Source of the DNA: Naegleria gruberi
Lineage: Eukaryota
Strand: one strand, 5' to 3'
Length of the DNA stretch: 64,000 nucleotides
Assembly (NCBI GenBank): GCA_000004985.1
Contig: GG738855.1
Shown here: piece by piece, positions 6,945 through 58,628 of the stretch
How the letters are laid out: every line of letters starts with the position of its first letter
How positions within the stretch are numbered: the first letter of the stretch is position 1
Position numbers and translations under genes: made by a program
Notes under the pieces: model-generated
Database searches by the model: none
Told to the model about the DNA's origin: nothing
The model's input: the letters and a program-made list of their open reading frames with translations, nothing else

Positions 6945-9900
6945 ATGAGTGATAACACAAGCACAGCCGTCATTGATATTCCCACTGCGGACGGCTATGA
7001 TGTTGCTGTCGATTTGATGAATGATGAGTACGATGATATTAAAAATTTACTTGTTGATGAAAAGGTGCCTTTGGAATATTATTTAAAAACAGCTATATTG
7101 TATCACAACATTGACAAGACGGATCATTTTAACAAGCTTTTAAATCTTGTTATTGAAGATTCTGAAGTAGAAGATAAATATTATCAGGATAATCCAAAGC
7201 CTTTGCTTGATGCTAGAACAGATGCCCTAAATATTCTTGTTGGTCATCTGATCGAACAATACAACAAGGTTAGAATTCATCAATTTGATAATGAAAGACA
7301 AGCTATGGAGGATATTTGTGATAACAAAAGGGAAGAACTCTTGAATGACATTAACAAATTGTTAGGTAAAGCCGAACAATTTAATCCTTCCAAATTGTCA
7401 AATTTCTATTCTCGTGGTGTCCTTCACCTTAATCTAGGAGCTTTGGACAAGGCAGAAAGTTCATTTGACTATATTATCACTGTAGATAAGGATAACATAT
7501 TATCAAAACTAGGAATGGCTTGCATCAAATATCACAAAAAACAATATAAGGAGGCTTTGAGTGAATTTGAACAGTGTTTATTGATGAACCCTCAAGGACC
7601 TGCAGATATTAGACTTGGTATGGGTCTTTGTCACTATCAATTGGATAATTTTGAAAGAGCAAAACAATGTTTTGAACGTGTTTTGCAGCTAGATCCTAAC
7701 AATGTGTCAGCACTCATTTACTTGGCAATTATTGACTTGAATTCTAGGGATGAGGAACTCTTACAAAATGCTGTCAAAAATTATTTGAAGAGAGCCTACT
7801 CATTAGATCCTGGTAATTCTCAAGTTTTGAATCTGTTAGGTAATCACTTTTTCTTTAGAAGAGAAGTTGACAAGACAGAAGAGCTTGTATTTGCAGCTTT
7901 CCATAATACTAAATCTCCTAAAATCAAAGCCGAAAGTTGTTATAATATGGCTAGAGCATATCATCATAAGAAGGATTATGACTCTGCATTCAAGTATTAT
8001 TATCGTATTGTCTCAAGGTTATGGCCAGAATATACTTTGGCAAGATATGGTTTGGGTCAATTGTACATTCAAAGAAACGAAATCGATAAGGCTGTCGAAG
8101 AATTCGAGCAAATTTTAAAGGTTGATCCTGAAAATTTGGAAACAAATTTAGCATTAGGAAATTTATATGCTAGAAAGAGAGATTCCAAGAAGAGTCTTGC
8201 ATACTTGAAGAAGGTCTTGAAGAAGGATCCAGAAAATATTAATGCATTGCTCCGAATTGGAGAACATGAAAGACATCAAATTCAACTTGCTTTGGATAGT
8301 TTGAAAGAAGCTCTTACCATCATTGAAGAGGGAGAAACAGAGCTTGTAGTAACACATGAATTATACAATAATATTGCTGTACATTATTACAAATTGGGAA
8401 AGAACACTGAATCTGAGGAGTATTTTAAGAAAGCTCTCTCGTTAGCTGAATGTAATGTTATGGACAATCTTGACGACTTGCATCAAGCCATTGAAGTTAA
8501 ACATTTATCATTGGTCTATAACTTTGCTCGTTTCAAAGAAGTATCCAAATCATTGGACGATGCCCAAAAGTTATACTTGAAGATTGTAGCTCAACATCCA
8601 AGTTATATCAATGCATATCTCAGACTGGGAAAGATTCAACAAAAGAATGGTAATCATGAAAAGGCTATTCATTTCTGCAAGTTGGCAACCTCTCTGGAAC
8701 CAAATAATGCTGCTACTTGGGCATTCCTAGGTCAAACTTATCTTGAGCAAAATAACTATACAGAAGCTCAAAAGGCATTTGAATATATCACTCAAAATAT
8801 TGACAAGAATGACATTTACGCATTATTGGGAATGGGTAATGTCTATTTCAAATCTCTCAGAACTGCAAAGCCGAATCCAGACGAAAAGGAACAAGAAAGA
8901 ATTGAAAAGCATTTGGATTATGCTCTTTTATTCTTTGAAAAGACTCTTAAACTTGACAATAGTAACATGTATGCAGCACTCAACAGTGGTTGTGTTTTGT
9001 GTGAAAATGGTTACACAGAAGAAGGTAAAGCTTTAATCTCGAGAGTAAGAGAAATTTGCGTTGGAGATGACATGAAGGATACTCCTGAGACATACATCAA
9101 CTTGGGACATTTGGCCATGATTCAAAAACAATTTTCTCAGGCTGAAAAGCTCTATTCTACTTGTTCTAAACGTTTCTTCAATGATGAAAATCCTATGGTG
9201 TTGGCCTATTTGGCCAAATCCTTGTTTGATAACAACAAACACGAAGAGTCACTCAATATCCTCAAGAAAATTCAAGAACAAGATGCTACCAATCTTACAA
9301 TCAAGTATAACATTGCCTTGGCCTTCTATGAAAAACTAGTTGCAACCTTGAATGATTCCAACAAGGATTTGACAAAGGTACAAATTTTAGAAGATCAAAA
9401 CCAAACTATAATTAATTTATTCTCTGAAATTGCAGAAAATACCAACTCAAAGAAGAATAGTTGTGAATTCTCTCTCGATGAAAAAATTGTTGTTCACAAG
9501 GCTAAGGACTTTATAACTGTGCTCGAAACAAAGATTAAAGAAAAGATTGAGAAATATAGAGAAAAGGCAGAAAAGGAAGAATTGGCCAGACATGAACTCA
9601 AGAAGAAACAAGAAGATGCCTTCAAGATTATTGAAGAACAAACCAAGAAACAACTGGAAGATCAAGAAGAATTGAGAAGAGTTAAGGAAGAAAAACTCAG
9701 AGAAACATTCGGTAGACTCGAATCTATCAAGGCCAATCTGAAAACAACTGCTTTCGAAGAGGATGAAGATGAAGAAAAGAAAACTAAGAAGAGAAAGAAG
9801 ACTCAAGACTACGATGACGATTTACAAGCAGAAAACAATGAAAATACAGAGCAACAAGAAGCTCCAGCCAAGAAGAAGAGAAAACCAAAAGAACCTAAGA

Positions 9901-10139
9901 AGAATAAGGAAAAGAAAGACAAGAAGGAAACCAAGAAAAATTCACGTCTCAAAAAGAATGCAAAGGCAACTGAAGAAGAGGAAAGAGATGAATTCGATGT
10001 TGATGACGTTCCACAATCATCATCTGCCAGAGTTATCAATGACGAAAATGAAAATGATAATGAAGAAGATGAATACAATGAGGAAGGCCCATCTCGTGCC
10101 ACTGATGAAGGTGAAGAAGAATTTGCATTCGATGAGTAA
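6945..10139 (+). CDS. CTR9: RNA polymerase II-associated protein CTR9 (Paf1 complex TPR subunit)
   Basis: 1064-aa single ORF with colinear matches to CTR9: RLGMGLCHYQLDNFERAKQCFERVLQLDPNN, LNLLGNHFFFRREVDKTEELVFAAFHNT..AESCYNMARAYHHKKDYDSAFKYYY, multiple TPRs, and the charged K/E/D-rich C-terminal tail typical of CTR9. Confidence 0.9.
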   Translation: MSDNTSTAVIDIPTADGYDVAVDLMNDEYDDIKNLLVDEKVPLEYYLKTAILYHNIDKTDHFNKLLNLVIEDSEVEDKYYQDNPKPLLDARTDALNILVGHLIEQYNKVRIHQFDNERQAMEDICDNKREELLNDINKLLGKAEQFNPSKLSNFYSRGVLHLNLGALDKAESSFDYIITVDKDNILSKLGMACIKYHKKQYKEALSEFEQCLLMNPQGPADIRLGMGLCHYQLDNFERAKQCFERVLQLDPNNVSALIYLAIIDLNSRDEELLQNAVKNYLKRAYSLDPGNSQVLNLLGNHFFFRREVDKTEELVFAAFHNTKSPKIKAESCYNMARAYHHKKDYDSAFKYYYRIVSRLWPEYTLARYGLGQLYIQRNEIDKAVEEFEQILKVDPENLETNLALGNLYARKRDSKKSLAYLKKVLKKDPENINALLRIGEHERHQIQLALDSLKEALTIIEEGETELVVTHELYNNIAVHYYKLGKNTESEEYFKKALSLAECNVMDNLDDLHQAIEVKHLSLVYNFARFKEVSKSLDDAQKLYLKIVAQHPSYINAYLRLGKIQQKNGNHEKAIHFCKLATSLEPNNAATWAFLGQTYLEQNNYTEAQKAFEYITQNIDKNDIYALLGMGNVYFKSLRTAKPNPDEKEQERIEKHLDYALLFFEKTLKLDNSNMYAALNSGCVLCENGYTEEGKALISRVREICVGDDMKDTPETYINLGHLAMIQKQFSQAEKLYSTCSKRFFNDENPMVLAYLAKSLFDNNKHEESLNILKKIQEQDATNLTIKYNIALAFYEKLVATLNDSNKDLTKVQILEDQNQTIINLFSEIAENTNSKKNSCEFSLDEKIVVHKAKDFITVLETKIKEKIEKYREKAEKEELARHELKKKQEDAFKIIEEQTKKQLEDQEELRRVKEEKLRETFGRLESIKANLKTTAFEEDEDEEKKTKKRKKTQDYDDDLQAENNENTEQQEAPAKKKRKPKEPKKNKEKKDKKETKKNSRLKKNAKATEEEERDEFDVDDVPQSSSARVINDENENDNEEDEYNEEGPSRATDEGEEEFAFDE

Positions 10140-23487: not shown

Positions 23488-26400
23488 ATGAAGTTTGGCA
23501 AAAGGTTACGTGATGAACAATGTCCCGAGTGGAGATTGTCCTATATGGACTACAAGGGATCTAAAAAATTAATTAAAAGAATTCAAACTAAATTGGAGGA
23601 GAGATATCATATTGACTTGCAAATGATTTTAAACGAAGTACCTCCGAGTGAAATTGGTGTACCCACCGATTACTTGGACAAGGAATTAACATCATTTGCC
23701 GATGAAATGTTTTATGCTGCTACTGGTTCCAATGTAGAGGAAAAGTCAGAAAATAATTTTATTAATTATTTGGAGGAGCACGGATTGGGAGGAATGTATT
23801 TACAAATTGTGCCAAAAGAAACTTGCCAATTTTTCAACAAACTTGAAAAGGAATTAGATAAGGTAAACAAATTTTATCTTCAAACTGAAAGAAAATTTTG
23901 TGTTAGACATGCCGAATTAATGATGCAATTGAGTGTGGGTTTAACAGAACCATTATCCAAAAATGACAAACAAAAAGTAAGAAGTGCATTCCAAGAGCAT
24001 TATAGAGCCCTTCTTTTATTAATGAATTTTAGAACTCTTAATTTTCAAGGCTTTTCCAACATTTTGAAAAAGGTAAGCTTTGTTTCAATTGTTTCAATTC
24101 TTGACATAAAACTAGTTGGACAAGTACACTAAAAGTAAGACTAAGACTAAATTGATGAAGAGAGTTAGAGATTCATATTTCTACTCATCCAAAGTTTTGG
24201 ATTATATGATGTCACAAATCGAGTATAAGTGTTCTGTATATATGTTTAAAGGAGATAGAAAGAAAGCTAAAGACTTTTTAAGACTTCCTCAAACTTTAGA
24301 AAAGCAAACATCACCATTTCGTTCAGGTATTTCTGTTGGAGCTGGTATTGTTTTATCAATAGCATTTGTTTTGACCTATGTGTTTTTATATCCTAGAAAT
24401 GATCCTCCCTCTTTTTCTGATGCCACCATGTATGTGTATAGATTAACTCTAGTGCCTATCATTTTAGCAGTATTGGTTGGTGTGAACCTTCAAATTTGGC
24501 AAAAAGCCCGTATTAATTATGTTTTCATTTTTAGATTCGACCCAAGAGATCACTTGAGTGTTTCTCAATATATTGAAGTAAGTTTTTACTTTCGTTGATT
24601 CTCACCACTTTAAAAGATGACTATGTTTATGTATAATATTACCATGGGAAGCTTACTAATTTACATGTACTCCATTATTACAAACACCTTTTATGAGTAT
24701 GCCTATCTTCACCCAATATTTTTATTTATTTTCCTGTTTATTTATATTTGCTTCCCATACAAATGGTTTTATGGCCATAGTAGATTGTGGCTTTTCAGAA
24801 TTATACTGAGGTTGTTAATGGCTCCATTCAGAAAAGTAGAATTTGCAGACTTTTGGTTTGCGGATCAATTGACTTCCCTTTCAGATTTTCTTTTTGAAAT
24901 TCAATTCGTTTATTGCGTTTATCCATCACTTTTTGTTGACAAGATTGATAGTTTTTGTTCAGATACTAGATCTTTAGGTATTCCAATTTTGAACATTTTA
25001 CCAAACTATATTCGTTTAATGCAATGTTTGAGACGTTACAGAGACAGCAAAAAACCTCACCCACACATTACCAATGCATTCAAATATTTATCGAGTATTA
25101 TTGCTACCATTATTGCCTTTTTAGATAAGAATATTGTTGCACGTACGTTTTTAATTTTCAACATTTTTATTCATTTTAATTGAACAATAGCAACACTACC
25201 TGGAAGTGATTGGAATTATATGAGAACTACATGGATTGTTGCTAATCTTATTAGCTCATTCTTCAAATTGATTTGGGATTTGAAAATGGATTGGTCCTTA
25301 CTACAATTCGAAAAGGACTCTGAACATAAGCTTTTGAGAAAGGAGCTTTTCTTCAGCCCATATTTCTACTATTTTTCAATTGTTACAAATATTTTAGCCA
25401 GATTCTTTTGGATTGTTGTTCTTTTATTGAAACAATTCTATAGCAAATATCTTGGAGATCAGTGGATAGGTTTTTGTTTTGGTCTAGTAGAAATTTTGAG
25501 AAGATTCCAGTGGAATTGTATCAGATTGGAGAATGAACATTTGAACAATGTTGGAGAATTTCGTGCTACTAATGTATGTTTTTTTAATAGTTTTGAAATA
25601 TTTAATATTTTAATAGGAAATTCCTTTACCATTCGAAATTTCCAGAATGATCAAGGCAAAGGAAAAGGAAATAACTAATGTAGACAGTATGTACAATTTT
25701 TTGAACATTCTTTTTCTAACTCTAATAGAATTGTTGCACTATATTTTCTTCTTCTGTAACCCTAGATCTGACGAAGACACTATCGATAAGGATATTAAGA
25801 AACTAAAGAGATTAAATCCAAGAAATTTACTCAAGACCAGTCTTTCACATGTTTCTTCCATGTTGGGAGGTGGCTTTGCAGCACTTTCAAAAGACAACCA
25901 TGACACTTCAATAGAACTGCAACCGATCAAGACCCCTATAACTATTCCATCACAGCAACCAATCCAAACACCATCTCAACAAAAACAACCAACCTTGAAA
26001 AGTACCTATTCTGTCGATAGTATTCACTCTGAAGGAGATGAAATAAGAAAGTCCAATAGCGAGTTTTACAAAAATCCAAAACCTGCCTCAACCTTTGTTA
26101 TTGATATTGAGGAAGAGAATTCATCCGATCAAATAGATTTAGCAAGAAGAAAGAATTCCATCCTAATAAGTGGTAATCCTATCAATATCACCTCACCAGT
26201 AACTCGCATACCTCAATTAGCTTCTCCATCCACTACTGACACGATTAATACTTCAAACGTGACTTCTACATCTTCTGCAAAGGAAGCTGCATCCAAACCA
26301 AAACTTTCCATCAGTACTGATTCGCCACGAAAGAGAGAAACTGTTCTTGTGAAAACCAAATCATTCAGAGCAAAAGAAACAGCTTCTTCTCAATCAGCAC

Positions 26401-32445: not shown

Positions 32446-35400
32446 TTAAGAAAGATCAAAGGTGTTTCTTCCCAATTGTATAGATGTTTCCATTCTTAGT
32501 TTGAGAGTTTGGAGCGATGTGTAGGCAGGTAATTTCAAATAGTTGAAACATGTATTGGATGTAGGTAAGGTATTGTCTGGGTTTTGACCTGTCTTTTCGA
32601 CGATAGTAATCTTCAATCCATCTATTGGAATTCTAGAACAACCGGTTACAAATTGAAGGAAGAGCTTTTGTTCTGATGCGCTCAAAGATAACAACCATTC
32701 CATTAAGAAGAGAATTGGTTCAGAATTGATGGTATAACCGTGTGAACATTGAATACAATCGAGCAAAGATTGCTTATCCTTCCATATTTCATCGCTTCCC
32801 TTGATAAAGAGTGATATTTCATCTGATGAAAAGCTCTTCAACAATTTCAAACCCCTATTCGAAATTATTTCTCTCAAACCAAATCTGATACAATTAATTT
32901 GTTCCATAACTCCCTCATTACACAAATAATTGGTCAAGCATGTCACATATTCATCAATGTTGTGAATTGTTACATCACTTGAAATTTCCTCGAGTGGTTT
33001 CAATTTGTAATTACCAAATGTGAAATCTAAGCTCAGCAAATCAATTTCAGATTTGAGCTTTTCCCATTCCTCTGAACCCTCTTGAATATTCTTCTTAATA
33101 TCTGCATATTTTATAATGGAGGTGATAGAGGTGAACAGTGTAGGATTGATTGAAGAATAGTCATTCAATTGGCATGGAGAGTTTGAAATTATCATATCTA
33201 TCATATTCAAGTTACATTCAAGATCCAAAAGTCTACCATCTTCAATGGCCTTACCAATCAAGGATCCCACCAGAGAGTACATGAATTGTTTCTCACCAGA
33301 TAAATGTTCAAAACTATTTTCAGATACAAGCTCAGGGAAGATACCGTATGCTGTTTTTACATAATCAGAATCGTCACTGGATTGATTCATCCACAAGCAG
33401 TGTTGCTTCTTTTGTAATTCTCTTGAAAGTAAATCAAAGAAAGCCCTCGTTGGACCAAGGCCAGTTCCGACTAATGAAATAATTAGACAAAGAAAATGAA
33501 ATACTTACCTTCATTTTCATATTCGAACTCCAAAATAGATTTAGAGGAGAAATTTTGTGGTTTGATTTGGGAAAGAGTTTGTTCTACTATTTTCTCTCTG
33601 TCCATAATTTTGACTTTCTCTGACTTTTTCCTGCCAATTCTAGTATCATTCGAGTCACCAACAGCTCCACACTGAGATTGAAGAATAGATGAAGGATGGA
33701 GAGTGACGCCACTCCACTTGAAGAAGAAATTTCTTCTTGTAGAAAGAGGTAGAAGGAAAGTTCCACAATGTGTTGCAATATTGTACATCCAAGATGGGAG
33801 AGTTCCACTAATCATTGCCAAAACAAGCCCAATGAAATATGAGTCCTTATTTTGTTGGATAATGAACTTGCTAGCCACTTGAAGGTTTTGGAAATTGCTT
33901 GGATCGATAATATTGTTGTTCTTTCTGTTTAGTTCGAAGAGAACCTTGAGAAGAATCAGGCAATTTGTCAATTCTTGTGAATGTGATTTCATATCTGCAG
34001 TAAATTGCTTGATCCATAGTAGTAATTTTTCGTTGAATGGACTCTTGGTTGGGTGTGTATTTTGGTGACTGTTCTCTTTCAAAAATTCCTTCAATTTGTG
34101 TGTTTTGTCAACAAATTTGTATGAAATTTCATACTCTTTGCTGAAAAGTTCCAAAATAACACTCTCCTCACACAGAGATAGCTTCTTCTCATTTAGAACT
34201 GTTTCAAAGAGAGTTAGTGAAGGCTCATCGCATAAATTCCCATCAATCGATATTTGAATCTGCTTGCCTTGAAGATCAATCTTTGAGGCTATAAAGTTCT
34301 CTATTGTCTTTATAGTAATAAGTGGCTCTGCCTTGAGGGAACCCTTCCAATCATGAGTTGAATTAGTAGGTTTAATATTCAAAACGACTCCTGATGCAAA
34401 CTTTTTCACTGTAGCTTCAGTGATACTAATATCTGATATTTTGAATGAGCTTTGAGCCAGCTTATCAATGAGGGAATGTAATAACTCTACCAAATTGGAC
34501 AAAACATCTCTATTCCTCACGATATACTTTTCCAAATCTTCAACACTGAAATCAAATGCAGAGATCAATGCATTAGTAAAGCTAGTCACAAAATTGGATT
34601 GCTCAAATGAGTATGATGAAATGGTTGATTGGTTAAGTATGTTGGCTAGTTCCTGCATAATTTCGCTATCAATTAAATTCTTTTTCAAAGAGGAACAAAT
34701 AGAGTGGAGCTTATTTTCCTCCTCTGAGGTATGATTGTAGTGAAGCTTGTCAGAGAAATAGTTATCTAAAATTGCCTGAGAGTTTGATTGGATAAGCCTA
34801 CTAATTGAAGTTTCAATAGGCTCTGATTGAGAATCTTTGGAAGAGTTAATCAATTCAGTGAGTGTACTTATAACTCCCTCTCTTAGAATAATCTTTTTAA
34901 CAGAGTCAAAACCACTATCAAGCTTGAGCAGAGAATGAATAATATGCAAGCAATTGGTAATTACAATAGAATCAAGTCTTGTAGCGTTTGAAAACTCTTG
35001 AGCAGACATGGTGAGATACATTGGTGAGCTATCTGTATCTTCGGAGGAACCTGCAGAGGAGGTATCATCTACATCCATCTTGTGGTGAGAGTATTGATTG
35101 AGGGTTTTGATCGCATATTTGGCAAGTATTTGTACACTTCTGGTTGGGATCTTGGAGGAGGATTTTTGATGGCTATTTACAAAACTATTCAAAATTTTAC
35201 AAATAATGTTAAGGCAATCTTTTCTATAAAACTCATTAGTAGAAAGGGCAATAAGAGGCTCTAATAATTCTTCCAAAGCATATTCAGAAATAAGCTTTTT
35301 GTTTTCTGTATCAAGTTTTGAGAAGGTGTTAAGTTTGATGAATTTATCCTTGCTCTTTGTGAGAGTTGGTTTCGTACTGGAGGATTTACTTCTGCTACCT

Positions 35401-46326: not shown

Positions 46327-48198
46327 ATGTGTGGTATTGGGGCAAGATTTTCTCTCGGAGCATCTTTATCCAAGTGGAATTTGTTGGATTTGCACTTTTT
46401 ATTACAATATGGAATGGTTGTGAATAGTAATAATCAACAACAGGTTGTTGAACAAGAAGTTAGAAACGAAAATAGTGTTGTTGTTGATGACGACTCAGAA
46501 GAAAATGATGGAAGAAACGAAACATTTGAACAGAAATTAGAAAAAATCAAGGCTATTACTGTACAAAGTACTCAATCGGAAGAGGTGGATATTATTTCTG
46601 GTATTAAAAGTGTTATTTCTCCAAGAGGTCCAGATGAAACTCGTCACGAAATTATTAATTTTGGAGATTCTACAGTGACACTTATTGCTAGTATTTTGGC
46701 TCTCAGAGGTGATAAGCCATACCCACAACCTATTACCATGACTGATTTGTCTGGTGACGAACACACAATAATATGGAATGGAGAAATATTTGGAAATGAA
46801 TATTTCAGAGAATGTGTTATTGAGCATGGAAATGATACAGTTTGTCTATTGGAACATTTGGTAAAATGTGGAAATGAGGATGAAGTTTTGAATACTTTGG
46901 CTAATATTGAAGGACCTTTTAGTTTTGTCTATGTCAATAAGAGGGAAAAATATGTGTTGTTTGGAAGAGATATTTTGGGAAGAAGAAGTTTGTTATATTC
47001 TGTAAACGGTCAAGATTTGATTATTTCTAGTGTAGCTTGTCACGTTCCAGAATTTTCTCAATGGAGGTCAATTGGTGTGAATGGAGTTTTCAAATTATCC
47101 CTTAGCGATGAAACTGGTTCACAATTGCTTTCCATGATTTCTTGGGAAGAAATTTACAAGAGAACTGGTAAACATCCGTTAATATCCGATAGAGAAATGA
47201 TAGAACCAAAGACTGAAGATGATTTGCGAGTGAATGATACAGTATTTGAGAGTGTTGTCGATGAGTTCATTTCATATCTTTCAAATTCTGTTGAAAAGAG
47301 AGTGACCAATGTCTATTCCAATAATGATGAAAATACCAAAATTAGTGTTTTATTCTCGGGGGGAATTGATTCAGTAATTATAACAGCATTGGCTCATTTG
47401 AAGCTTGAAAAAGGAATGCCTATTGATTTATTGAACGTCTCATTTGGAGTTGATAAAAAGCAACAGGATCAATCAGCTGACAGAAAGCAAGCCATAGAAT
47501 CCTACGACGAGTTGGCAAGACTTTACCCTGATAGACCTTTCAGATTGGTTCTTGTTGATATTAACTCAACTGAATTAGCAGAAAATCAAAAGAGAATTGA
47601 ATCACTCATTTATCCACAAAATACTGTCATTGACTTTAATATTGGATCAGCATTATGGTTTGCCTCAAGAGGAAGAGGATACATTTACAATTCTTCAGAG
47701 CCAACCAACACATCAAATTTGTACACTTCAACAGGCAGAGTCATTTTGTGTGGTATTGGCAGTGATGAACAACTTGGAGGTTACAAGAGACATTTTAAAA
47801 AATACAAGTACAAGGGTTGGAATGGTCTTAACGAAGAAATGGATATGGACATTAAGCGGTTATGGATTAGAAACTTGGGAAGAGATGACAGAGTAATATC
47901 AGATCATGGAAGAGAATCTAGAAATCCATTTTTAGATGAGCCATTCATTAATTTTGTTAGAAAACAACCATTATGGTATTTGGCTGATTTTACCAATAAC
48001 CAACCAAATGATAAGCCAACCCAACAACAATCAACCACATTACCAGGTGATAAGAAAATACTGAGGAGAGCAGCTCAAAAACTTGGTCTTTCTAGGTCAT
48101 GTATGTATGTTAAAAGGGCAATGCAATTCGGTTCCAATGTGGCTAAAATATCCTACAAGAAACAACATGCAAGCACTATACTTCAGATTGAGTATTAA
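46327..48198 (+). CDS. ASNSD1: Asparagine synthetase domain-containing protein 1 (ASNSD1)-like
   Basis: 623-aa single ORF. It begins MCGI (N-terminal nucleophile Cys of class-II glutamine amidotransferases) and has the PP-loop SGGIDSVIITALA of the asparagine synthase domain. Confidence 0.78.
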   Translation: MCGIGARFSLGASLSKWNLLDLHFLLQYGMVVNSNNQQQVVEQEVRNENSVVVDDDSEENDGRNETFEQKLEKIKAITVQSTQSEEVDIISGIKSVISPRGPDETRHEIINFGDSTVTLIASILALRGDKPYPQPITMTDLSGDEHTIIWNGEIFGNEYFRECVIEHGNDTVCLLEHLVKCGNEDEVLNTLANIEGPFSFVYVNKREKYVLFGRDILGRRSLLYSVNGQDLIISSVACHVPEFSQWRSIGVNGVFKLSLSDETGSQLLSMISWEEIYKRTGKHPLISDREMIEPKTEDDLRVNDTVFESVVDEFISYLSNSVEKRVTNVYSNNDENTKISVLFSGGIDSVIITALAHLKLEKGMPIDLLNVSFGVDKKQQDQSADRKQAIESYDELARLYPDRPFRLVLVDINSTELAENQKRIESLIYPQNTVIDFNIGSALWFASRGRGYIYNSSEPTNTSNLYTSTGRVILCGIGSDEQLGGYKRHFKKYKYKGWNGLNEEMDMDIKRLWIRNLGRDDRVISDHGRESRNPFLDEPFINFVRKQPLWYLADFTNNQPNDKPTQQQSTTLPGDKKILRRAAQKLGLSRSCMYVKRAMQFGSNVAKISYKKQHASTILQIEY

Positions 48199-48253
48199 AG
48201 GCTGTTTAATTCCCTTTCAAAAAACGACCGTTATTTTTCAAAGCAAGAAAAAA

Positions 48254-51200
48254 ATGTCTACCGATAGAGGTAAGGGATCAATTTTCATAATTACCTTAAT
48301 TACTTGTTAAAATTCAAATTGATATAGCTCCGAATACATTCACTGTTGGTAAGACACCATGGGTAAGGTTTACCAATAAGGAGAATGTATACTTTTATGC
48401 TAAACCTTTCAAAACTGATAGAGAGTAAGTAAGGCAAAACAAGAATAGGGTTGATGATCATAATATAATAATATTATAGTAAAATTTGGCAAGAAAAAGA
48501 AGATCCAAAAACAGGAAAGGTATTCTATTATCATTGGGCTTCCAAGACATCCTTAAATTCCTACACAGAATTTCCTGACTATGTAACATTAGCTGAGAGT
48601 GGAGCTACAACACCAACTACTCCAACAACACCAACGACACCAACTACAACAACAAATACTTCTTCACCAACAACAACAGCCTCAACAACTCCTGCTCAAT
48701 CAACACCAACATCCGCATCAGCAGCAACAACGTCCACCCCATCATCAGAAAACACATCTCAACAAGAAGATAAAAAGGTTGAAAATACAACAATCGAAAA
48801 AGTCGAGGAAAAACCAAAGGAAACAATAGCGGAACAAAAGATAGAATCAATACCTAAGGATACTGAAACTAAGGTCGAGAGCAAAACCGAAACGACACCA
48901 AGTGAGGAGGAACCTAAGAAAGAGTCACCTAAGAAACAGGAACCAAAAGAAATCAATTACCTCCCCTCCAAAACAAGAAAGACAAGAAGAACCTGTAGAA
49001 AAGCCTTTGCTAAAAAAAGAACCAGTTGTTGAGCAATCTAAACCTGTTGAGACACAACCTGTTATTGAGCAATCGAAACCAGTACCTGTAACAACAGCAC
49101 CACCAAAGGAGGAACCAGTAGAGCCAAAAGAATCCAAACAAAAGAAAGTAGTTCTGGAAGAAGATCCAAAACAAAAAAAGAAGCAAACTCAAAATGAAAA
49201 TCAAAAGCCAAAAGCAATGACGATGGTCCAAGGAAGTAGTGGAAGTGCTGGTGCAGAGGATTTTAAAGATTTTGGCCCAAATCAACCAAAACCAAGATTA
49301 TCATTTATTGGAAAACGTCAAAGTCAAGTGAAGGTTTCATTTACTAAGAAGGATTTAGCAAGAACCGACTTTGATGATTCAATCGAAGATGGTATGTTTT
49401 CAAAGTTTCTTTTTTATTAATTTTCAAAGAATTATTCAATTTACCTGGAAGAGGAGAGGTTAAGGTTCATACAGCTTTTAAGGGAACATATTTTTCAACT
49501 GTAAGTTGTTTTTACAAAAAATTAATTTATACTTTAATAGCCTAAAACCAAAAAAGATAGAATTGTAATTTTAGCAAGAGATTTTGTTGGTGCATTTTGT
49601 CTCTTTATGGCAGGCCAAGAAGGAAAGAGGTTTGTTTTTAAGATTTTAGTTTATCTCACAAATTCAGCAATAAGAAGAACGTAATTTTAGCTGCTTATCC
49701 ACTACTTGATTATTCAGATATAAATGAAGATAAGGACAAAATTACATTAAATATTGATGGGAATGAGTTTGTTTTACAAGCTAGTGCAGTAAGTAAGGAA
49801 AGATTAAAGCTAGGCCTGGAAGTTGCTTATGGTGAACTAGATGCAAAAACAGACATGGAGTTACATAGTAAGTTTTTACTAATTTACAATTAGTTTACAC
49901 CTTCATAGATTACAGACTTGGTTCTATCGAGTTTGCAAACTCCTACTATCAACAATATGTTGATGTTCCTGCCTCTTCAATTATCAAATCTATTATGGAG
50001 TCAGATCCTAACGAGATTTTAGATGAAAGTATCCAAGAAAGTTCTGATACTTTCGTTTCTAGCAAATATGATCAAAGTCTTAGATTACTCCAGACAGCTG
50101 TTAAGAATAGCAATGACAGAGATAGTGCCATCCAAGAAGCTTGTTTGTACATGGAGAGAATTATAAAAAAGATTGACAAGGGTGTATTTGAAAAATTCTC
50201 AAGAATATTGGATATTATATTCAAAAACCCAACAACTACTGAACGGCCTGAGCTCAGAAATAACTTTTTAAAGACAATGAACGACATCAGAAATAGCAAG
50301 AAAATTGCTGATAACATTATTGATGAATTGATAAAGACTGGTAACGAAAGCTTTAAGGCTATTCAGTTATGGAGGTCAAGAGCCAAATTGAAAGAAGTTC
50401 CTTTTGGGGAGGAATACCAACCAGCCACACAAAAATCAAAAGGAAAGAAGGAACTTCAACAAGAAAAGCTTATGAGAGAGTCAATAATTCAAAAAAAGTT
50501 GCCTTCTGGTGTTTTTCTTGGTGTACTATTCTTTTCCAAGACTGGAGAAGTTCTCTCTGATAGAAATGACAATTTACCAAGTGTTAAGTTAGATCGGTTA
50601 ATGTATCATAATGAAAATTCCAAGAGCTTAGACCATCAAGATTGGCAGTGGTTGCTGAAACATGGACAACAATCCTTTACTCAAACAATTTTAGATTTAG
50701 TCCCTTCGCTATCTAACCCTCAAATTATTTTAGATGTATTTAAAACTGATTTTATTAGGTCTTTTAACGATTTATATAGAGCTGTAAATCAGTCAACCAA
50801 GCCAAATGTAGATCTGGGTGTATTGTTGGATAAGTGTGTAACAATGAAGGGCCAAAATATTTTATATTATCTGATGGTTAAACAAGTAGATAAGAAGGAG
50901 TTTGAAATTCCTAATGGGTACAAATGGGATCCAACTATTGATTTTGAGTATAAGCAATATCAAAAATATGAAAACCTAGACGAATCATTTGTGATTGAAA
51001 AATTAGAAAGCCATTACTCGGGATCTAGATGGGTCTATAATGCCATGGATTACTACAAGTCAGTTACTTCGAAAACCTACTCTGACGGCTTGTGGCTGGG
51101 ATACTTCAATTTCAAGTTGACTGAAAGAGGTTCTTACCAGCTCTTAGTGGAAGATAAAGCTAGATTCATGATTCCTTCCATTAAGATTTCAGACAAATTT

Positions 51201-53243
51201 GATATTAGAAAATTGAGGGATTTACTTGCTAATAATTTCTCCTCCTTGTCTTCAGTTACAAATATTAATGAAGAAACACCAGACTACTTGTGTGAAACTT
51301 TAGAGAAACAAGTATTCCGAGCCAAACTCCAGTTACAACAAAAGATTTGTAAACCAGATTTGGGCTATCTTTACACGAATGAAATTTTAGATGTCGGTGA
51401 AAGAATCAAACTTATCCTCTTTATTGATAATGATACTACTTCACAGATTGGAAATGAGTACAATAGGGTTCTTTGGAGAGATGAGATATCATTTGAGGCT
51501 ATTCACTTATCATTGTTTTATCCTGTCCTTCATGAGCACTACATGGGAAACATTCGAAAGCAATTACTATTTGATAATTCTGTTTTCAATGATAGCTCTA
51601 CATCAAGTGATGAATATTTGAAAAATAAGGAGGTCAATAATATAGGAAGACTGAAAGAACTGATTAGAGCAGAAGAAGCTTTCTACATTATTAGGTGGCC
51701 ACACCGAGTTATTTCAACATACTTATCTATCAAGCAGAACAACAATGCAATCTTACACTTGATAAATAATGGTAAAGAACTTGCCAAGATTGTTTTTGAT
51801 CAAACTATTGGTAAGAAGAAAACCTTTAGAGATTATAGGTTGGAGCTTTTCAAGGCGCAAGATAGTCAAGAAATTGCAGCTAGGAAACAAAAAGAAATCG
51901 AGTCCAAATCAAAAGTTGGCATTCAGGAACAAGATTTAGAAAAGTCGACGTGTGCCGTTTACAACGTTGATGCAAACATTGAGGATATCCGTGATATTGA
52001 ATTGATAATGATCGGACCGACCAGGGAAGAAGTTTTGACTAATTTGATTGAAGAAGAAGTTGAATTAAATATTGTAGATCACTTGGATAGACTTGAACTT
52101 GAAGCAATCAAGAGTACCTTAGATGATGTTATATCTATTATTGAGGTTACCACTGACATGGTTGATAAAACTATTTTTGAACAAAAGAAGGCTGAATCAA
52201 AAAATCATCTCAAAGCAGAAAGGGTTGATTATATCCAATCAGTATTCAGTGGTATAAAATTTGAAGTAGAAAAGACAGAAGAAGACAAGATTGAAATTGA
52301 AGGATATGACTCATTATACAGACAATCCATTCAACTCTTTGATGCTTCTATGGATAGTTCACTTCTTTTACTTCAAACCATAGAAAAGACTCAATCAATG
52401 ATTGACCTGGTCGAGGTGATGTTTACACATGATGACAATCTTGAAAAGCAAGACAAAGTGGTCCGATCTATTCAGAGGATTAAGGATAGGCAAGCTGAAA
52501 TTATGGCAGCCCAACCTTCATTCCCTGTACTTCCAACACCGACTCACAACCACAGTGCAAATAATGCCATTCAACAATCAGCTTCTCAAATTTTGAATCA
52601 ACCAATTCATCCAACTGTTCTCCAAGCTAAAGCAAATATCAATCTAGATGAAGAAAAACTAAGACAAATGCTGGAAGAGGAGGAACGAAAGAAGACTGAA
52701 GAATACGATAGAAAGATGAGAAAATATGTACAAAAGGCAACAGGTTTTTCTTCTTTTTCTCTTCCATATGGTACTCCTCAACAATTTGTTAAGAAGAGAC
52801 CACAGAGTAATAAGCCTTCATCAACAAATGCAAATACTTCGACAAACTCTTCTATGCTGTCTAATAAGAGTATTACTGCTAATTCTCCATCAACCTCAAT
52901 GCTTAGCTCCCTACAAAATACACCAAGTACTCCACAAGAAAAGAGTAAGAAACCAACCAGTAGTTTGGCTCAGTCAATCCTCTCCAAACCAAAAACCTCA
53001 TCAACCAAACCAAACTCTTCCAAACCAGAGTTACCATCCCTTGATGGAAAACCTCACTCTTCAGCATATATTTCATTTGATACCTACAGAGACATGATGG
53101 GTCTGAGTTCATACAACAAGTTTTTGAATCAGAATAATGTTCTCTCCAACTTGGATTCTTGTCTGAAGAATTATAATGATGCCAAGAAGGCCAGTGACCA
53201 AGCTATTTTATCCTTACTTCCATCAACAAGTAAAAAAAAGTAA
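48254..53243 (+). CDS. Large multi-exon gene of unknown function (WW-like domain, T/P- and E/P/K-rich linker, PH-like segment, about 1100-aa uncharacterised C-terminal region); join(48254..48269,48328..48424,48480..49391,49430..49500,49541..49629,49668..49867,49894..53243) with a 1-nt frame discontinuity near 48960
   Basis: Exon 1 (MSTDR) ends at a GTAAGG donor. Exons 2-3 encode APNTFTVGKTPWVRFTNKENVYFYAKPFKTDR/DKIWQEKEDPKTGKVFYYHWASKTS (WW-like), followed by a TTPTTP... repeat and an EQSKPV repeat. Canonical introns of 58, 55, 38, 40, 38 and 26 nt link this region in frame to ORF 49995..53243 (1082 aa, no recognisable domain), whose reading frame is open upstream of its first ATG. Total exon length is 4735 nt; it becomes 4734 = 1578 codons only if one nt is dropped in the poly-C tract, where the coding frame shifts by +1. 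Confidence 0.45.
48590..48730 (+). repeat. Coding Thr/Pro-rich repeat (TTPTTPTTPTTPTTTTNTSSPTTTASTTPAQSTPTS) in exon 3 of the large gene
   Basis: Repeated acaccaac/actccaac units are visible. Confidence 0.55.
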
Positions 53244-53392
53244 ATATACGACATTAAGTGTTAAAACTTTAATATTGAAACAGACTTGTTGGTTCTCTTG
53301 TATTAATATATAATAATGACAGAATTTGTCTTCCTGATGATATTTTCACAGTCAAATTTTTGTTGAACAAAAATAAATTGAATTTTAAAAAA

Positions 53393-56300
53393 ATGGTCAA
53401 ACCCTATTACCGTATTGTGCCAGAGAGAACAACAGGTACTATTGCATCACCATACGCATCAATTCACTATGATCAAACAAAAGCATCCGATATTGTATAT
53501 TCACCAATGTTGTACCAAATAGGTGTTTGGAACAAACGTGAAAATGAATTAGTATCAATAATAACACCACAAGATGAATCCTACTATGGAGGAAGTATCA
53601 ATGAAGGTACCATGAAGTATAGTAATATTACCTTCATCACACATTGCAATAATTTTATTGCTGCTGGATATCAAAATGGTAAAATTTTAATTTACAACTT
53701 GAAAACAAGCGAACAAGTTTTATATACAACAGGACACTCTTCAAGTGTTTCCTATTTACAATTTAATTCCGATTGCTCTTTACTTGTAAGTGGAGGTGAT
53801 GATACCGACATTGTTTGTTGGGATATTACAGCTTGTCAAGCAAAATTTAGATTACGTGGACATAAAGGAAGAATTACTGGTTTGATATTTTTGGAGAAAA
53901 CAAATGCTTTGATTAGTTCGAGTAAGGATATGTTGATTAAAGTCTGGGAATTGACTACTTATCACTGTGTTCAAACATTGATTGGTTCTCGTAATGAAAT
54001 TTGGTCAATTTGTGTAGACTCAGATGAACATAGGTTATTCGCTGGTAGTACGGATAGTGAAATTAGAGTTTGGGATATTCAAGTATTTTTAAATAAGGAA
54101 ACTCAATATTTCTATGAAAATGATCCTGTTTTTATGGGAACTTTGAAGAGAAGAGATGAAAGTAGAGTTTTGCAAATGAAATTTGACCATACGGGTACTT
54201 TATTAGCTATTGTTGGCTCAGATTCAAAGATTGTAGAAATTTTCAAAATGAGAAATGAAAAGGAAATTGAAAAGAAGAGAAAGAATGCAGAATCTTTAAC
54301 ACCTAACATGGAATATAAGTGGTGGTTACAAATCAAGTCTAATTATGAAATTAGATCTTTGGACTTTAATCCATTCGAGTCAGTTTTAACAAGAAGTGAA
54401 ATTTCTACAGACAGCGAAGACAAACTCTCAACTAGAATTTTGAATGCCAAGATGAATGATTTTAGAGTAATAATTTCAACTTTGCGTAACACTATTGAGG
54501 AATACAAAATTGAACCAAATAAGATTGTCAAATCCAATCAAGATCAATACCAAGGAATTACATGTACAAATACTATTGAAAGACAAGGTCACGGTACTCC
54601 TGTGAGATCCATTTCAATTTCAGATGATAATGTTACCTGTATGTCATTGTCTTCTAAGGAGTGCCACATTTGGAATTTGGAAAATGGTAAATGTATCAAG
54701 ACATTGAATGATGTTGACCATGGGTTGAGTGCTATTTGGATACCTTACACAAATAACAGATACTGTTTGGTTGGTACCAAGAAGGGTAACATTCAAATAT
54801 ATGACGTGAATATTTCGGAATGTATTGAAACTATTCAAGCTCACTCAAGTACAATCTATAGTATTCAATTTGTTCCTCCAAGTAGTTTCAATGATAACAA
54901 TGGTGGTATCATTACTGCCAGTAGTGATAAGTGTGTTAAATTCTGGGAATTTGAAATGAAAGGAAAGAATTTGTCCCTCGCAATCAAGAACGTTCTCGAA
55001 ATGAACGAAGAAATTATTGCCATAACTGTTTCAAAGAATGCTAAATACTTGGCTGTTTCTCTGTTGGACAATACTGTTAAAATTTTCTACATGGACACTA
55101 TGAAATTCTTCCTCTCACTCTATGGCCACAAGTTACCAATCAAATGTTTGGATATTTCTAGTGACGAACAATTGATAGTGACTGGTAGTGATGATAAGAA
55201 CATTAAGATTTGGGGTTTGGATTTCGGTGATTGTCATCGTTCCTTATTAGCCCACGAACAAGGTATTACTTCAGTCAAGTTTATCAATGATACTCACTAT
55301 TTCTTCAGCGCCTCTAAGGATGGTAACATCAAGTATTGGGATGGTGATAAATTTGAATTAATTCAAGTTGTCACAAGCCAATATATTTCTAAATCACCAC
55401 TTTGGTGTTTGGATATTAGCAGTGACGGACACAGAATGGTTACTTCTGGCCACGAAAGAGCACTCTTTATCTATACCCAGTCTGATGATATGTTATTCTT
55501 GGAAGAAGAAAAGGAAAAGAGATTTGAAGAGGAACAACTTGAAAAGGATTTACCTCACTCCCAACAATTCAAAGATTTGTCCTTGGCAGGAGCTGAAGTC
55601 ACTCATGCTGGTCAACGTTCCATGGAAACTATTCGTGATGGTGAAAAGCTTATGGAAAACCTTGATGTTGCTATCAATGAAGAAATTAATATTATCGAAA
55701 GTATTGCTAATAATGTTACAATTCCTAAGAATCCTCTCTTGTTAGGATTATCTATTGAGGAATATGTTTGGAAGTGTTTGACACGTATTGCCAGATCTGA
55801 TTTAGATATGGTGCTTTCAATTATCCATTTCAGTCATGCCTATTTCATTTTGAAACAAGTTAACAAGTTGATGAAACAAAAGAGTGTAGATATTGAATTG
55901 TCAACTAGAATTGTTTTACTTTTAATTCATATTCACTACAAGCAATTAGTTCAAAGCAACAGTGACCAAGAAACCTTTGACTTGATGCAATCACTCCATG
56001 AACTTGTTAGAAATGGGCTTGTACAACAATCTAAGAGAATTGGATTCAACGTTGCCGCTCTTCAATTTGTAAAGAATAGAATGAAGAATGAACAAGAATT
56101 ATTTGAATTCAATAAGGAATCTAAAGTTAATGATATTGTTAAATCATACAGAGAAAGACAACGTGAAAAGAAAAGATTGGCCAAATATGAAGCTGAACAA
56201 TCATCAACAGGTAAAAAGAAGAAGGAACACAAGAGAATGGCCAAATTCAAGGGCATGTTAGATTCCATGATTGAAAAGATTGAAAATGACCCAACCAAAC

Positions 56301-56458
56301 AAGTTGTTTTTGAAAGTAATGTTAAGGATAAAAAGATTTCATCCCTCAAGAGAAAATTCAAAGAAATGGAAGATAAAAAGACCAAGAAGCTCAAGTCAAT
56401 GATTCAAGATGACGATGACACTGAAGATTTCCTCAATGAACTTTCCTCATGGGATTAG
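53393..56458 (+). CDS. WDR3: WD repeat protein 3 / U3 snoRNP protein UTP12 (small-subunit processome)
   Basis: About 1020-aa single ORF. It contains long near-identical stretches to human WDR3: [39 protein letters not shown]...[21 protein letters not shown]...[24 protein letters not shown] versus [39 protein letters not shown]...[21 protein letters not shown]...FFTAGKDHKIKQWDADKFEHIQTL. Confidence 0.88.
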   Translation: [1021 protein letters not shown]

Positions 56459-56726
56459 ATTTCTACAAGGCATTTCCTTCTCCACTCAATATATTTCAAG
56501 AAGATGATCAGTCTTTTTCAGATGTAAATCCTAAAAAAACTTGTTAAATCTCCTTCAATTAGGGCACCTCAGAATTTTTGCGCGCTCTCTTTTAAAACGC
56601 TTAACTATTAAAAATTCCTAAAATCATCCAAACACCATATCATATTTTTTAAAGTTCTCTCTGCTCAAAGTAAATAGCAATCACAAAACCTGGTTTTAAT
56701 ACGGCGAAACCTGGTTGATCGACAAG

Positions 56727-58628
56727 ATGAAAAACAAAATGCAGGACAATATGGTAGGGCTTTACCTGACCAAACATGCCAAATCATTTCAGGAATATAA
56801 TTATAATTTGTGGAATTTATTTGATTTATTACATTCATCATCTGTTCAATGTAATTTAACGGCTCTAGAATTAAAATTACACATCTTGAGTTATTGTATT
56901 TTGGAAATATCACCCAGGACGTGTCCTATTCTGTATTCAACATCAACAAGTTCCGATGAAATACCAATCGAAGAAATCGAGAGGAGTCTATTAAAGATAA
57001 TGTATGGAAAATTCGATTCAGATAAGACTAGGATTCATCAAATATATCACCATTTTCACATCTACTTTGATACAGCATCCATGGGAATGACCATAAGATT
57101 TCCTACACTTTTTGATGATCAATTAATACGGATAATATGGAGCAAGGCTAAATCTATGCATTGTCAAAATGTTGATTCATCAGAAAATTATTACTTTTCA
57201 ATACCAACAATAACAAAACCCCAACTAGATAATGACACTAGTGGAGAATCAAAACAAAAAAGGAGAAAGGTTGATAGAGATTTATCACCCCTTGAAAATT
57301 GGTCAAAACATTTAGGTACACTATGTAAAAATCTTGAACAATTGAGAGTGAAATTAGACTATAACCTTTTAGAATTCATGATATCTAAGGACAATACTTG
57401 TGTTTGTCCATTATTAAGAAATTGTGAGACATTTATTCAACCTATTCATTATGAGATTGATGAAAACTTGTTGAATCATACCCTTTTATTTCCATTTGTT
57501 TCTACAGTTGAGTGGACTTTCTCAGATCAACCAATTTGCAACACTCTAAACATGATGTCTAGCAGATTTTTACCAAAATTTCCAAACTTGACATCTCTCA
57601 AAATAAGGAATTTCAATATTAACAACACAAACTATTGCTCTTTGAATCCATTTGGACCCCTAATTGAATATTCGAAAAATCAAACTGTACTGTTGAGCTC
57701 CCTCTCACTAAACATGAGTTTTTCCTTCAATACCACAAACTGTTTGCGGTGTTGGACCAAGTTTTGGAGTAACATTTCCGAGTTGTCCTCTCTAGAAAGA
57801 TTAGAAATTAATCTCTCTCTGAAACCTTGTGAAAACTGGGAATCAATAGAGAAGGATGTTTTAAAAGTACTGACCGATACATTTGGTTTTATCTCTAACC
57901 CTGAAAGTAATGAGAAGAAATTGAATTTACCTAAGCTTAAAATTATCAAACTTAACATACACAATCAAAATGACGAGATTATAATAGACCAATCACTAAT
58001 TCATTTCCTTTTACAACAGAGGTATAACTTATTGTCAGAAGTTGAAATTGATTTTAAAGTTATGGATACTGATCAATATAATCAGTGTTTCCTCTTTTTA
58101 GAGGATGAGTTCAATTCAGGTAACAGTACAATCTCAAAACTCAAGTTATCTGGAGTCACACTCAACAGTGATGCTTGTGTTGCTTTGGGTAGATGCTCAT
58201 CTTTGAGGTGGCTCATCTTGAAAAATGTAAAATTTGAGGGAGATGATGAGGAAATTAGATATTGCCTCGATTACCTGTCTCAATCGAAGAGTATTACACA
58301 TTTAGAATTACCACATTGCTATTTGGAAGAATATCATTTGGAACCTATATTATCTAATATGGATCAGTTAGAATTACTCAATCTGAAATTTAATAATATG
58401 GGAGCTCTATTACTTTTAAGGCACGTGACAACATCCTTCAGTACAGATCATGATGATTATCAAGTAAGAAATAATCTAGTTCACTTAAATGCACTAAATC
58501 TGGAAGGAAATGTCAAGATCAAGAAGGAACATATTGATACACTACTAGAACAAAATGAAAATCTCACCTATGTTTCTCCATGTAATTTAGGAGACTTTCT
58601 TCCAATACCAACCTTCACTTGGCAATAA
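56727..58628 (+). CDS. Hypothetical leucine-rich-repeat (RNI-like) protein
   Basis: 634 aa from ATG 56727. The C-terminal half has RNI-type LRRs (KLKLSGVTLNSDACVALGRCSSLRWLILKNVKF..., LELPHCYLEEYHLEPILSNMDQLELLNLKFNNMG). No catalytic domain recognised. Confidence 0.4.
   Translation: MKNKMQDNMVGLYLTKHAKSFQEYNYNLWNLFDLLHSSSVQCNLTALELKLHILSYCILEISPRTCPILYSTSTSSDEIPIEEIERSLLKIMYGKFDSDKTRIHQIYHHFHIYFDTASMGMTIRFPTLFDDQLIRIIWSKAKSMHCQNVDSSENYYFSIPTITKPQLDNDTSGESKQKRRKVDRDLSPLENWSKHLGTLCKNLEQLRVKLDYNLLEFMISKDNTCVCPLLRNCETFIQPIHYEIDENLLNHTLLFPFVSTVEWTFSDQPICNTLNMMSSRFLPKFPNLTSLKIRNFNINNTNYCSLNPFGPLIEYSKNQTVLLSSLSLNMSFSFNTTNCLRCWTKFWSNISELSSLERLEINLSLKPCENWESIEKDVLKVLTDTFGFISNPESNEKKLNLPKLKIIKLNIHNQNDEIIIDQSLIHFLLQQRYNLLSEVEIDFKVMDTDQYNQCFLFLEDEFNSGNSTISKLKLSGVTLNSDACVALGRCSSLRWLILKNVKFEGDDEEIRYCLDYLSQSKSITHLELPHCYLEEYHLEPILSNMDQLELLNLKFNNMGALLLLRHVTTSFSTDHDDYQVRNNLVHLNALNLEGNVKIKKEHIDTLLEQNENLTYVSPCNLGDFLPIPTFTWQ

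What the first reader, a model, noticed from the sequence alone, without database searches (positions are those of the whole stretch)
48940..48990. One-nucleotide frame discontinuity in a poly-C tract inside the large multi-exon gene
Upstream of about 48960 the T/P/E/K-rich low-complexity protein is in one frame (..ESPKKQEPKEINYL..). Downstream the equally protein-like E/P/K/V-rich repeat (..SPPKQERQEEPVEKPLLKKEPVVEQSKPVETQPVIEQSKPV..) is in the +1 frame. No GT..AG intron can bridge them. Deleting one C from the run tacctcccctcc unifies the frames, and then the seven-exon model totals exactly 1578 codons. This is either a homopolymer sequencing or assembly error, a recent frameshift that makes the gene a pseudogene, or, less likely, programmed ribosomal frameshifting.
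Basis: seen in the sequence. Interest (0 to 1): 0.5.

Follow-up and report, generated by a model that had tools for sequence, protein, structure and literature searches.

The report
One extra A breaks a gene
A conserved Naegleria gruberi gene is knocked out of frame in this reference sequence by one extra A, not by the poly-C tract, so it is an ordinary sequencing error or private mutation rather than programmed frameshifting.

Summary
The frame break is real in the sequence. Exon 3 (48480-49391) of a large PH-domain gene reads in frame 1 up to about 48950 and in the +1 frame afterwards. No credible intron bridges the two frames.

The window is Naegleria gruberi NEG-M, a Sanger draft assembly. 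Orthologues in N. lovaniensis and Willaertia magna carry the same architecture in one uninterrupted exon.

A 99% identical environmental N. gruberi strain (run ERR1078381, assembled by two different assemblers) reads GAAATCATTACCTCCCCTCC. The window reads GAAATCAATTACCTCCCCTCC. So the surplus base is an A at 48955/48956, and the poly-C tract is identical in both. In that strain exon 3 is 914 nt, in the correct phase, and the gene is intact.

What remains open is whether the extra A is a consensus error or a private, possibly heterozygous, loss-of-function allele of the laboratory strain. I put these at about 45:50; only reads or PCR can decide. The environmental strain has its own 4-nt frameshift in another gene, so real frameshift alleles do occur in this species. 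Interest is low.

The parts
48955..48956 (+). AA dinucleotide in ATCAATTACC. One of the two A's is surplus relative to the conspecific strain (ATCATTACC). This is the actual frameshift site.
   Evidence: Alignments of L006 and L007 to the window. It lies inside the codon-usage switch interval 48942-48963.
48963..48966 (+). It is identical in the window, L006 and L007.
48254..48269 (+). Exon 1 (ATG at 48254)
   Evidence: Donor GTAAGG at 48270. N-terminus conserved with N. lovaniensis.
48328..48424 (+). Exon 2
48480..49391 (+). Exon 3, 912 nt (mod 3 = 0). It holds the weak WW-like motif, the T/P-rich then E/K/P-rich linker, and the start of the conserved region. The orthologous exon is 887 nt in N. 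lovaniensis and 914 nt in the conspecific strain (both mod 3 = 2).
49030..49032 (+). TGA that ends the upstream frame if the sequence is translated as written (221-aa product).
49217..49219 (+). In-frame ATG (Met284 of the repaired protein), invariant in all three species. It is a possible internal start for an N-terminally truncated product (speculative).
49430..49500 (+). Exon 4 (71 nt, same length as in N. lovaniensis)
49541..49629 (+). Exon 5 (89 nt, same length as in N. lovaniensis)
49668..49867 (+). Exon 6 (200 nt, same length as in N. lovaniensis)
49909..53243 (+). Last exon, after a 41-nt intron at 49868-49908.

Best explanation
The window is Naegleria gruberi NEG-M. Exon 3 of a conserved gene for a roughly 1570-aa PH-domain protein contains one surplus A (CATT to CAATT, 48955/48956) in its non-conserved low-complexity linker. 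As written, translation from ATG 48254 leaves the true frame at codon 196 and stops at TGA 49030. That yields a 221-aa fragment lacking the PH domain and the 1100-aa C-terminal region.

Shown: the insertion is confined to this sequence record. The same gene is uninterrupted in a 99% identical environmental strain and in N. lovaniensis and Willaertia magna.

Inferred: this is an ordinary one-base insertion, not a programmed event. It is one of two things. It may be a consensus or base-calling error of the 2010 Sanger draft, in which case the organism makes the full-length protein. Or it may be a private, possibly heterozygous, loss-of-function allele of this diploid laboratory strain that the consensus happened to pick. 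I put these at about 45% and 50% and cannot separate them without reads.
For: Species and technology:
- Exact protein matches to N. gruberi NEG-M entries EFC47224.1, EFC47227.1 and EFC47236.1.
- Sanger technology and a diploid, heterozygous genome (PMC9928731).

Orthologues:
- P0001 (N. lovaniensis, 52% identity, 95% coverage) and P0002 (W. magna) join the N-terminal domain, linker and PH/C-terminal region in one protein.
- The N. lovaniensis exon lengths are 34/88/887/71/89/200/... against 16/97/912/71/89/200/... in the window. Only exon 3 is out of phase, by +1.

Conspecific contigs:
- L006 (ENA, MEGAHIT) and L007 (Logan), from run ERR1078381, are 99.1% identical to the window. Both lack one A at 48955/6 and keep the same C-run.
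- In L006 exon 3 is 914 nt and open, and a 563-aa 5' part of the gene has no stop.
- L003 carries the rest of the gene intact.
- All other indels between the strains are intronic, intergenic or in-frame.

Introns and other frame changes:
- 20 confident introns in the window are 38-77 nt and 14-33% GC. Every formal bridging GT..AG pair scores below the weakest true donor and has exon-like composition.
- Every other frame change in about 44 kb of coding sequence has a canonical intron or is a gene boundary.

Calibration for a real allele:
- The environmental strain has its own frame-breaking (ACAT)2 to (ACAT)3 duplication at window 9090, in a TPR gene that is intact in NEG-M.
Against: - No reads, traces or cDNA of NEG-M could be examined, so error and real allele are not separated.
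- The environmental comparison rests on one sequencing run.
- The annotated NEG-M model of this gene could not be retrieved, so I do not know how the public annotation treats the site.
- A to AA is not a classical long-homopolymer error context.
- The estimated rate of real frameshifts rests on a single event in the other strain.
Confidence: 0.94

Rival explanations
1. Homopolymer-length error in the poly-C tract. Under this reading the true sequence has CCC instead of CCCC at 48963-48966.
For: Deleting one C also restores the frame and removes a very rare CCC codon (1.2 per 1000 codons).
Against: The conspecific intact allele has the identical CCTCCCCTCC and differs by the A 8 nt upstream, in two assemblies. 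Codon-usage likelihood places the C-run at the edge of the switch interval, 2.4 bits below the optimum.
Confidence: 0.02
2. Programmed +1 ribosomal frameshifting, or transcriptional slippage, yields the full-length protein from the sequence as written.
For: The required shift is +1. A rare CCC codon lies 3 codons downstream (CUC CCC UCC). This was not excluded experimentally.
Against: - The conspecific strain and both orthologues encode the protein in one frame, so no shift site is conserved.
- There is no stop or known slippery/hungry motif at the site. The 0-frame stop is 74 nt downstream.
- There is no downstream RNA structure: minimum free energy -6.8 kcal/mol, z = +1.24 against shuffles.
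- The site lies in a fast-evolving linker.
Confidence: 0.015
3. An unrecognised small intron, or two separate transcription units, make the two frames legitimate.
For: 137-138 GT..AG pairs formally bridge the frames. An invariant ATG (Met284) lies downstream.
Against: - The best bridging donor scores 2.3 bits, against a true-intron minimum of 2.76 and a median of 9.2.
- Every candidate has exon-like composition and is 76 nt or longer, and would remove sequence with strong coding signal.
- The orthologous exon is continuous in three other genomes.
- The N-terminal domain and the C-terminal part belong to one protein in the orthologues.
Confidence: 0.01
4. An old, decaying pseudogene.
For: There is a frameshift in a conserved gene. 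In the last exon the strains differ at 3 nonsynonymous sites and 1 synonymous site.
Against: - There is a single lesion in 4.7 kb.
- All six introns keep canonical sites and conserved phases.
- Over the whole gene the count is 7 synonymous to 7 nonsynonymous differences. NEG-M retains the ancestral residue at both conserved sites that could be polarised, E342 and G947.
Confidence: 0.01

Closest known systems
Single-base indel errors in draft Sanger whole-genome assemblies (the cases that NCBI labels 'LOW QUALITY PROTEIN' or frameshifted CDS)
   Same: One surplus base in an otherwise intact, conserved, multi-exon gene of an 8x-class Sanger draft. It is the only such lesion in about 44 kb of coding sequence in the window.
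   Different: The context is A to AA, not a long homopolymer. It could not be checked against traces.
Segregating or heterozygous loss-of-function frameshift alleles in diploid, largely clonal protists
   Same: A private one-base insertion relative to a 99% identical conspecific. The other strain carries its own 4-nt frameshift in a different gene. Naegleria is a heterozygous diploid (PMC9928731).
   Different: Heterozygosity at this site in NEG-M is not shown.
Programmed +1 ribosomal frameshifting (antizyme OAZ1; yeast Ty1, ABP140, EST3; Euplotes)
   Same: Only the direction of the shift needed (+1).
   Different: No conserved shift site, no slow or stop 0-frame codon at the site, no stimulatory structure, and the conspecific gene needs no shift.
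PH_36 (PF26278) domain-containing protein of Heterolobosea (N. lovaniensis C9374_007928; W. magna ABK040_006770)
   Same: The gene that hosts the lesion is their orthologue: 52-59% and 38-42% identity, with shared intron positions.
   Different: The function of the family is unknown. On the N. gruberi protein my Pfam scan reported only a sub-threshold WW match.

Membership tests
Programmed +1 ribosomal frameshift site | The frame break and shift site are conserved in orthologues and conspecifics. | tested here: not met
   N. lovaniensis, W. magna and a 99% identical N. gruberi strain all have one continuous frame.
Programmed +1 ribosomal frameshift site | A slippery P-site codon followed by a stop or slowly decoded 0-frame codon at the shift point. 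| tested here: not met
   The site reads AUC AAU UAC CUC. The first 0-frame stop is at 49030, 74 nt downstream. The only rare codon (CCC) lies 3 codons downstream of the extra A.
Programmed +1 ribosomal frameshift site | A stimulatory RNA structure or element nearby. | tested here: not met
   48940-49060 folds at -6.8 kcal/mol, z = +1.24 against shuffles.
Programmed +1 ribosomal frameshift site | A trans-frame protein product is made. | not testable with these tools
   Needs a Western blot or mass spectrometry on NEG-M.
Spliceosomal intron of N. gruberi | GTA(A/T)GT-type donor, YAG acceptor, 38-77 nt, AT/T-rich (14-33% GC). | tested here: not met
   Position-weight matrix and composition model built from 20 introns of the window. 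All 137 bridging candidates fall below the weakest true donor and have exon-like composition.
Homopolymer-length error in the poly-C tract | The C-run length differs from that of an intact allele. | tested here: not met
   CCTCCCCTCC is identical in the window, L006 and L007.
Decayed pseudogene | Multiple disabling lesions, lost splice sites, relaxed constraint. | tested here: not met
   Single lesion, conserved exon phases, 7 synonymous to 7 nonsynonymous differences, ancestral residues kept.
Consensus error of the assembly | Underlying reads disagree with the consensus at 48955/6. | not testable with these tools
   No NEG-M traces or reads are reachable. No second NEG-M-derived sequence was found.
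Orthologue of the heterolobosean PH_36 protein | Collinear similarity over the full length and shared intron positions. | tested here: met
   Exons 4-6 are 71/89/200 nt in both the window and N. lovaniensis.

The most novel reading that the evidence does not exclude
NEG-M really carries CAATT on all copies yet still makes the full-length protein, by +1 ribosomal frameshifting or polymerase slippage in the AAU-UAC-CUC-CCC region. This would be a newly arisen recoding site in a heterolobosean.
Probability: 0.01. Interest if true: 0.55.

Novelty: already known. Interest (0 to 1): 0.07.

Why it matters
The value is mainly practical. The public N. gruberi NEG-M reference has a broken model for a conserved heterolobosean PH-domain gene of about 1570 aa. 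The repair is deletion of one A at 48955/6, which gives ..KEIITSPPKQ.., not deletion of a C.

If the insertion is real, it is one more sheltered loss-of-function allele in a diploid, mostly clonal amoeba. The reciprocal 4-nt frameshift in the environmental strain hints that such alleles may be fairly common. That would be of modest population-genetic interest. Nothing here touches an open question about recoding.

Tried and rejected
- Degenerate exact-pattern scan of metagenome contigs for the exon-3 end and alignment-driven search for related loci on metagenomes: nothing found.
- Three homologous-protein searches. Recall was erratic. One search missed the 100% identical P0003, one search missed P0001 and P0002, and one search found nothing although P0006/P0007 are in the collection. 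I do not use absence of hits as evidence.
- Exact look-ups of guessed NEG-M gene models (1082-aa ORF, 221-aa truncated product, Met284-start models, repaired full length): none on record. The look-up of encoding contigs holds no N. gruberi NEG-M record.
- Exhaustive representative search with the frame-2 ORF: only P0007.
- PRJEB11402 was not found in the literature library, so the origin of the environmental sample is unknown.
- My first parse of the L003 alignment wrongly suggested a 1-nt indel inside the WD40 gene. Re-parsing showed that all indels are intergenic.
- L004 (75% identity) and L005 (63% identity) are relatives that do not reach exon 3.
- The ratio of synonymous to nonsynonymous differences is too small a sample to distinguish a recent real frameshift from an error.

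Full report
**Observation.** Around 48940-48990 two strongly coding reading frames abut.
- Frame 1 (position mod 3 = 1) is open from 48472 to a TGA at 49030 and reads ..EEEPKKESPKKQEPKEINYLPSKTRKTRRTCRK.. .
- Frame 2 is open from 48845 to 49417 and reads ..SITSPPKQERQEEPVEKPLLKKEPVVEQSKPVETQPVIEQSKPV...
- A codon-usage log-odds model trained on the 24 ORFs of 300 codons or more in the window gives 61.6 bits to frame 1 over 48490-48951 and 73.2 bits to frame 2 over 48944-49405.
- A changepoint scan puts the switch between 48942 and 48963. It is flat within 2.4 bits, with the optimum after 48951.
Deleting one base gives 4734 nt, or 1578 codons including the stop, with exons 48254-48269, 48328-48424, 48480-49391, 49430-49500, 49541-49629, 49668-49867 and 49894-53243. 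The arithmetic is right.

**No intron explains it.** The statement that no GT..AG can bridge the frames is literally wrong: 137-138 combinations do. I collected 20 confident introns from the window. They are 38-77 nt, 14-33% GC, T-rich, and have mostly GTAAGT or GTATGT donors. Against a position-weight matrix and composition model built from them, the best bridging candidate (donor CAA|GTGAGG at 48902) scores 2.3 bits. The true-intron minimum is 2.76 and the median 9.2. Every candidate also has exon-like composition. I then examined every other same-strand frame change in the window. Each has a canonical short intron or is a gene boundary. This is therefore the only unexplained frame break in about 44 kb of coding sequence.

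**Identity of the sequence and of the gene.** Exact look-ups show that the window is Naegleria gruberi strain NEG-M. It matches EFC47224.1 at 503-1780, EFC47227.1 at 6945-10136, and the WD40 protein EFC47236.1 at 53393-56455, on a 613-kb scaffold. That genome is a Sanger assembly of a heterozygous diploid (PMC9928731). The repaired protein has orthologues in N. lovaniensis (P0001, 52% identity over 95% of the query, a PH_36 domain protein) and in Willaertia magna (P0002).

In the three-way alignment the N-terminal 77 residues are conserved; they contain a weak, sub-threshold WW-like motif. Everything from residue about 285 onward is also conserved. The frame break sits in the middle of the non-conserved low-complexity linker. 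So both sides of the break belong to one protein in the relatives.

Tracing P0001 on its genomic locus L001 gives exons of 34/88/887/71/89/200/489/2561 nt. The window's exons 4-6 have identical lengths (71/89/200). Exon 3 is 887 nt there (mod 3 = 2) and 912 nt here (mod 3 = 0). The window therefore carries one nucleotide too many. In W. magna the region is a single long exon. The 41-nt intron 49868-49908 gives ..MELH|NYRLGSIEF.., which matches ..DLHYYRLASVEF.. and ..ELQTYRLCCTEF... The repaired protein is then 1572 aa.

**The decisive comparison.** A second homology search turned up a 100% identical ORF on an ENA metagenome contig (P0003, locus L003). L003 is 99.4% identical in DNA to window 50229-57679. 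A conspecific strain is therefore present in run ERR1078381 (PRJEB11402). L003 does not reach exon 3, so I looked up candidate prokaryote-style ORFs near the site by exact sequence. The 137-aa ORF starting at TTG 49007 is on record from two contigs of that run. One was assembled by MEGAHIT (L006, 2350 nt, equal to window 47860-50210, 99.07% identity). The other was assembled by Logan (L007, 1577 nt).

Both read GGAACCAAAAGAAATCATTACCTCCCCTCC where the window reads GGAACCAAAAGAAATCAATTACCTCCCCTCC. The poly-C tract is identical. The window has an extra A at 48955/48956. In L006 exon 3 is 914 nt (911 plus an in-frame CAA, mod 3 = 2). It translates without interruption as ..KKQEPKEIITSPPKQERQEEPVEKP... 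With the same six introns, the first 563 codons of the gene are open. L003 supplies the rest of the gene, also open. All other indels between the two strains lie in introns (48450; 49512-13), in intergenic DNA (53305-53346; 56498; 56639), or are in-frame.

**What it is.** The lesion is a single-A insertion private to the NEG-M reference record.
- An old pseudogene is excluded. There is one lesion, the splice sites and phases are intact, and the strains differ at 7 synonymous and 7 nonsynonymous sites. At the two conserved sites that can be polarised (E342, G947), NEG-M keeps the ancestral residue.
- Programmed +1 frameshifting has nothing in its favour. The conspecific and the orthologues need no shift. 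There is no stop or known slippery or hungry motif at the site. The downstream RNA is less structured than shuffled controls (z = +1.24).

**Error or real allele.** This cannot be settled here. Neither traces nor any second NEG-M-derived sequence could be reached.

A one-base consensus error in an 8x-class Sanger draft is a common event. One in about 44 kb of coding sequence is compatible with the usual 1e-5 to 1e-4 per-base range; that range is my own knowledge of such drafts, not a tool result.

Against a default verdict of error, the environmental strain carries its own frame-breaking change. This is an (ACAT)2 to (ACAT)3 tandem duplication at window 9090. It splits a TPR protein that is intact and annotated in NEG-M (1064 aa) into ORFs of 734 and 340 aa, and both assemblers of Illumina data report it. 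Real frameshift alleles therefore exist in this diploid, largely clonal species at a rate comparable with the plausible error rate. A rough Poisson calculation done by hand, not with a tool, uses these two events and assumed indel error rates of 1e-5 to 5e-5 per base. It puts the probability of a real allele between about 0.3 and 0.8. I take about 50% real (possibly heterozygous) allele, about 45% consensus error, and about 5% for everything else.

**Consequence if real.** Translation from ATG 48254 would end at TGA 49030 after 221 residues, losing the PH domain and the C-terminal region. An ATG at 49217 (Met284) is invariant in the three species. It could in principle start an N-terminally truncated product, but this is speculation.

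**Verdict.** The interpretation as an ordinary error or private frameshift is supported, and programmed frameshifting is not. Low interest. The practical outcome is a corrected gene model for a conserved heterolobosean protein.

Noticed in passing
window 9086-9093 versus L008 2811-2822 and L009 2405-2416: The environmental N. gruberi strain has a 4-nt tandem duplication, (ACAT)2 to (ACAT)3, inside the TPR-protein gene 6945-10136. That gene is intact in NEG-M (EFC47227.1, 1064 aa). The duplication splits it into ORFs of 734 and 340 aa, and both assemblers agree. It is a reciprocal, apparently genuine, frameshift allele.
   Followed up: partly
Homology to N. lovaniensis and W. magna removes the extra IYTFID.
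   Followed up: yes
whole window (20 introns, e.g. 3441-3482, 24578-24616, 33471-33508 on the minus strand): The introns are uniformly tiny (38-77 nt), 14-33% GC, and have mostly GTAAGT or GTATGT donors. The window is very gene-dense: at least 44 kb of 64 kb lies in ORFs of 300 codons or more.
   Followed up: partly
L003, L006, L007, L008, L009 (ENA ERZ929261 and Logan, run ERR1078381, PRJEB11402): A strain 99.1-99.8% identical to N. gruberi NEG-M is present in a public 'metagenome' run. No paper citing the project was found, so the sample type is unknown.
   Followed up: partly
window 49430 (E342G) and 51363 (G947C) relative to L006 and L003: The environmental strain carries derived nonsynonymous changes at residues conserved in N. 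lovaniensis and W. magna, while NEG-M keeps the ancestral state. These could be slightly deleterious variants or low-coverage assembly errors.
   Followed up: no
window 53295-53351: A dense cluster of SNPs and 6-, 3- and 2-nt indels between the two strains lies in the 116-nt spacer between the target gene's stop codon and the WD40 gene. It is a hypervariable AT-rich intergenic stretch.
   Followed up: no
window 49217-49219: Met284, just upstream of the conserved EDFKDF..LSFIGK block, is invariant in all three species. It is a possible internal start codon.
   Followed up: no
tool behaviour: the search for homologous proteins missed 100% identical proteins known to be in its collection (P0003 in one search; P0006/P0007 in one search), and missed P0001/P0002 in one search. 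Negative results from it should not be read as absence.
   Followed up: yes
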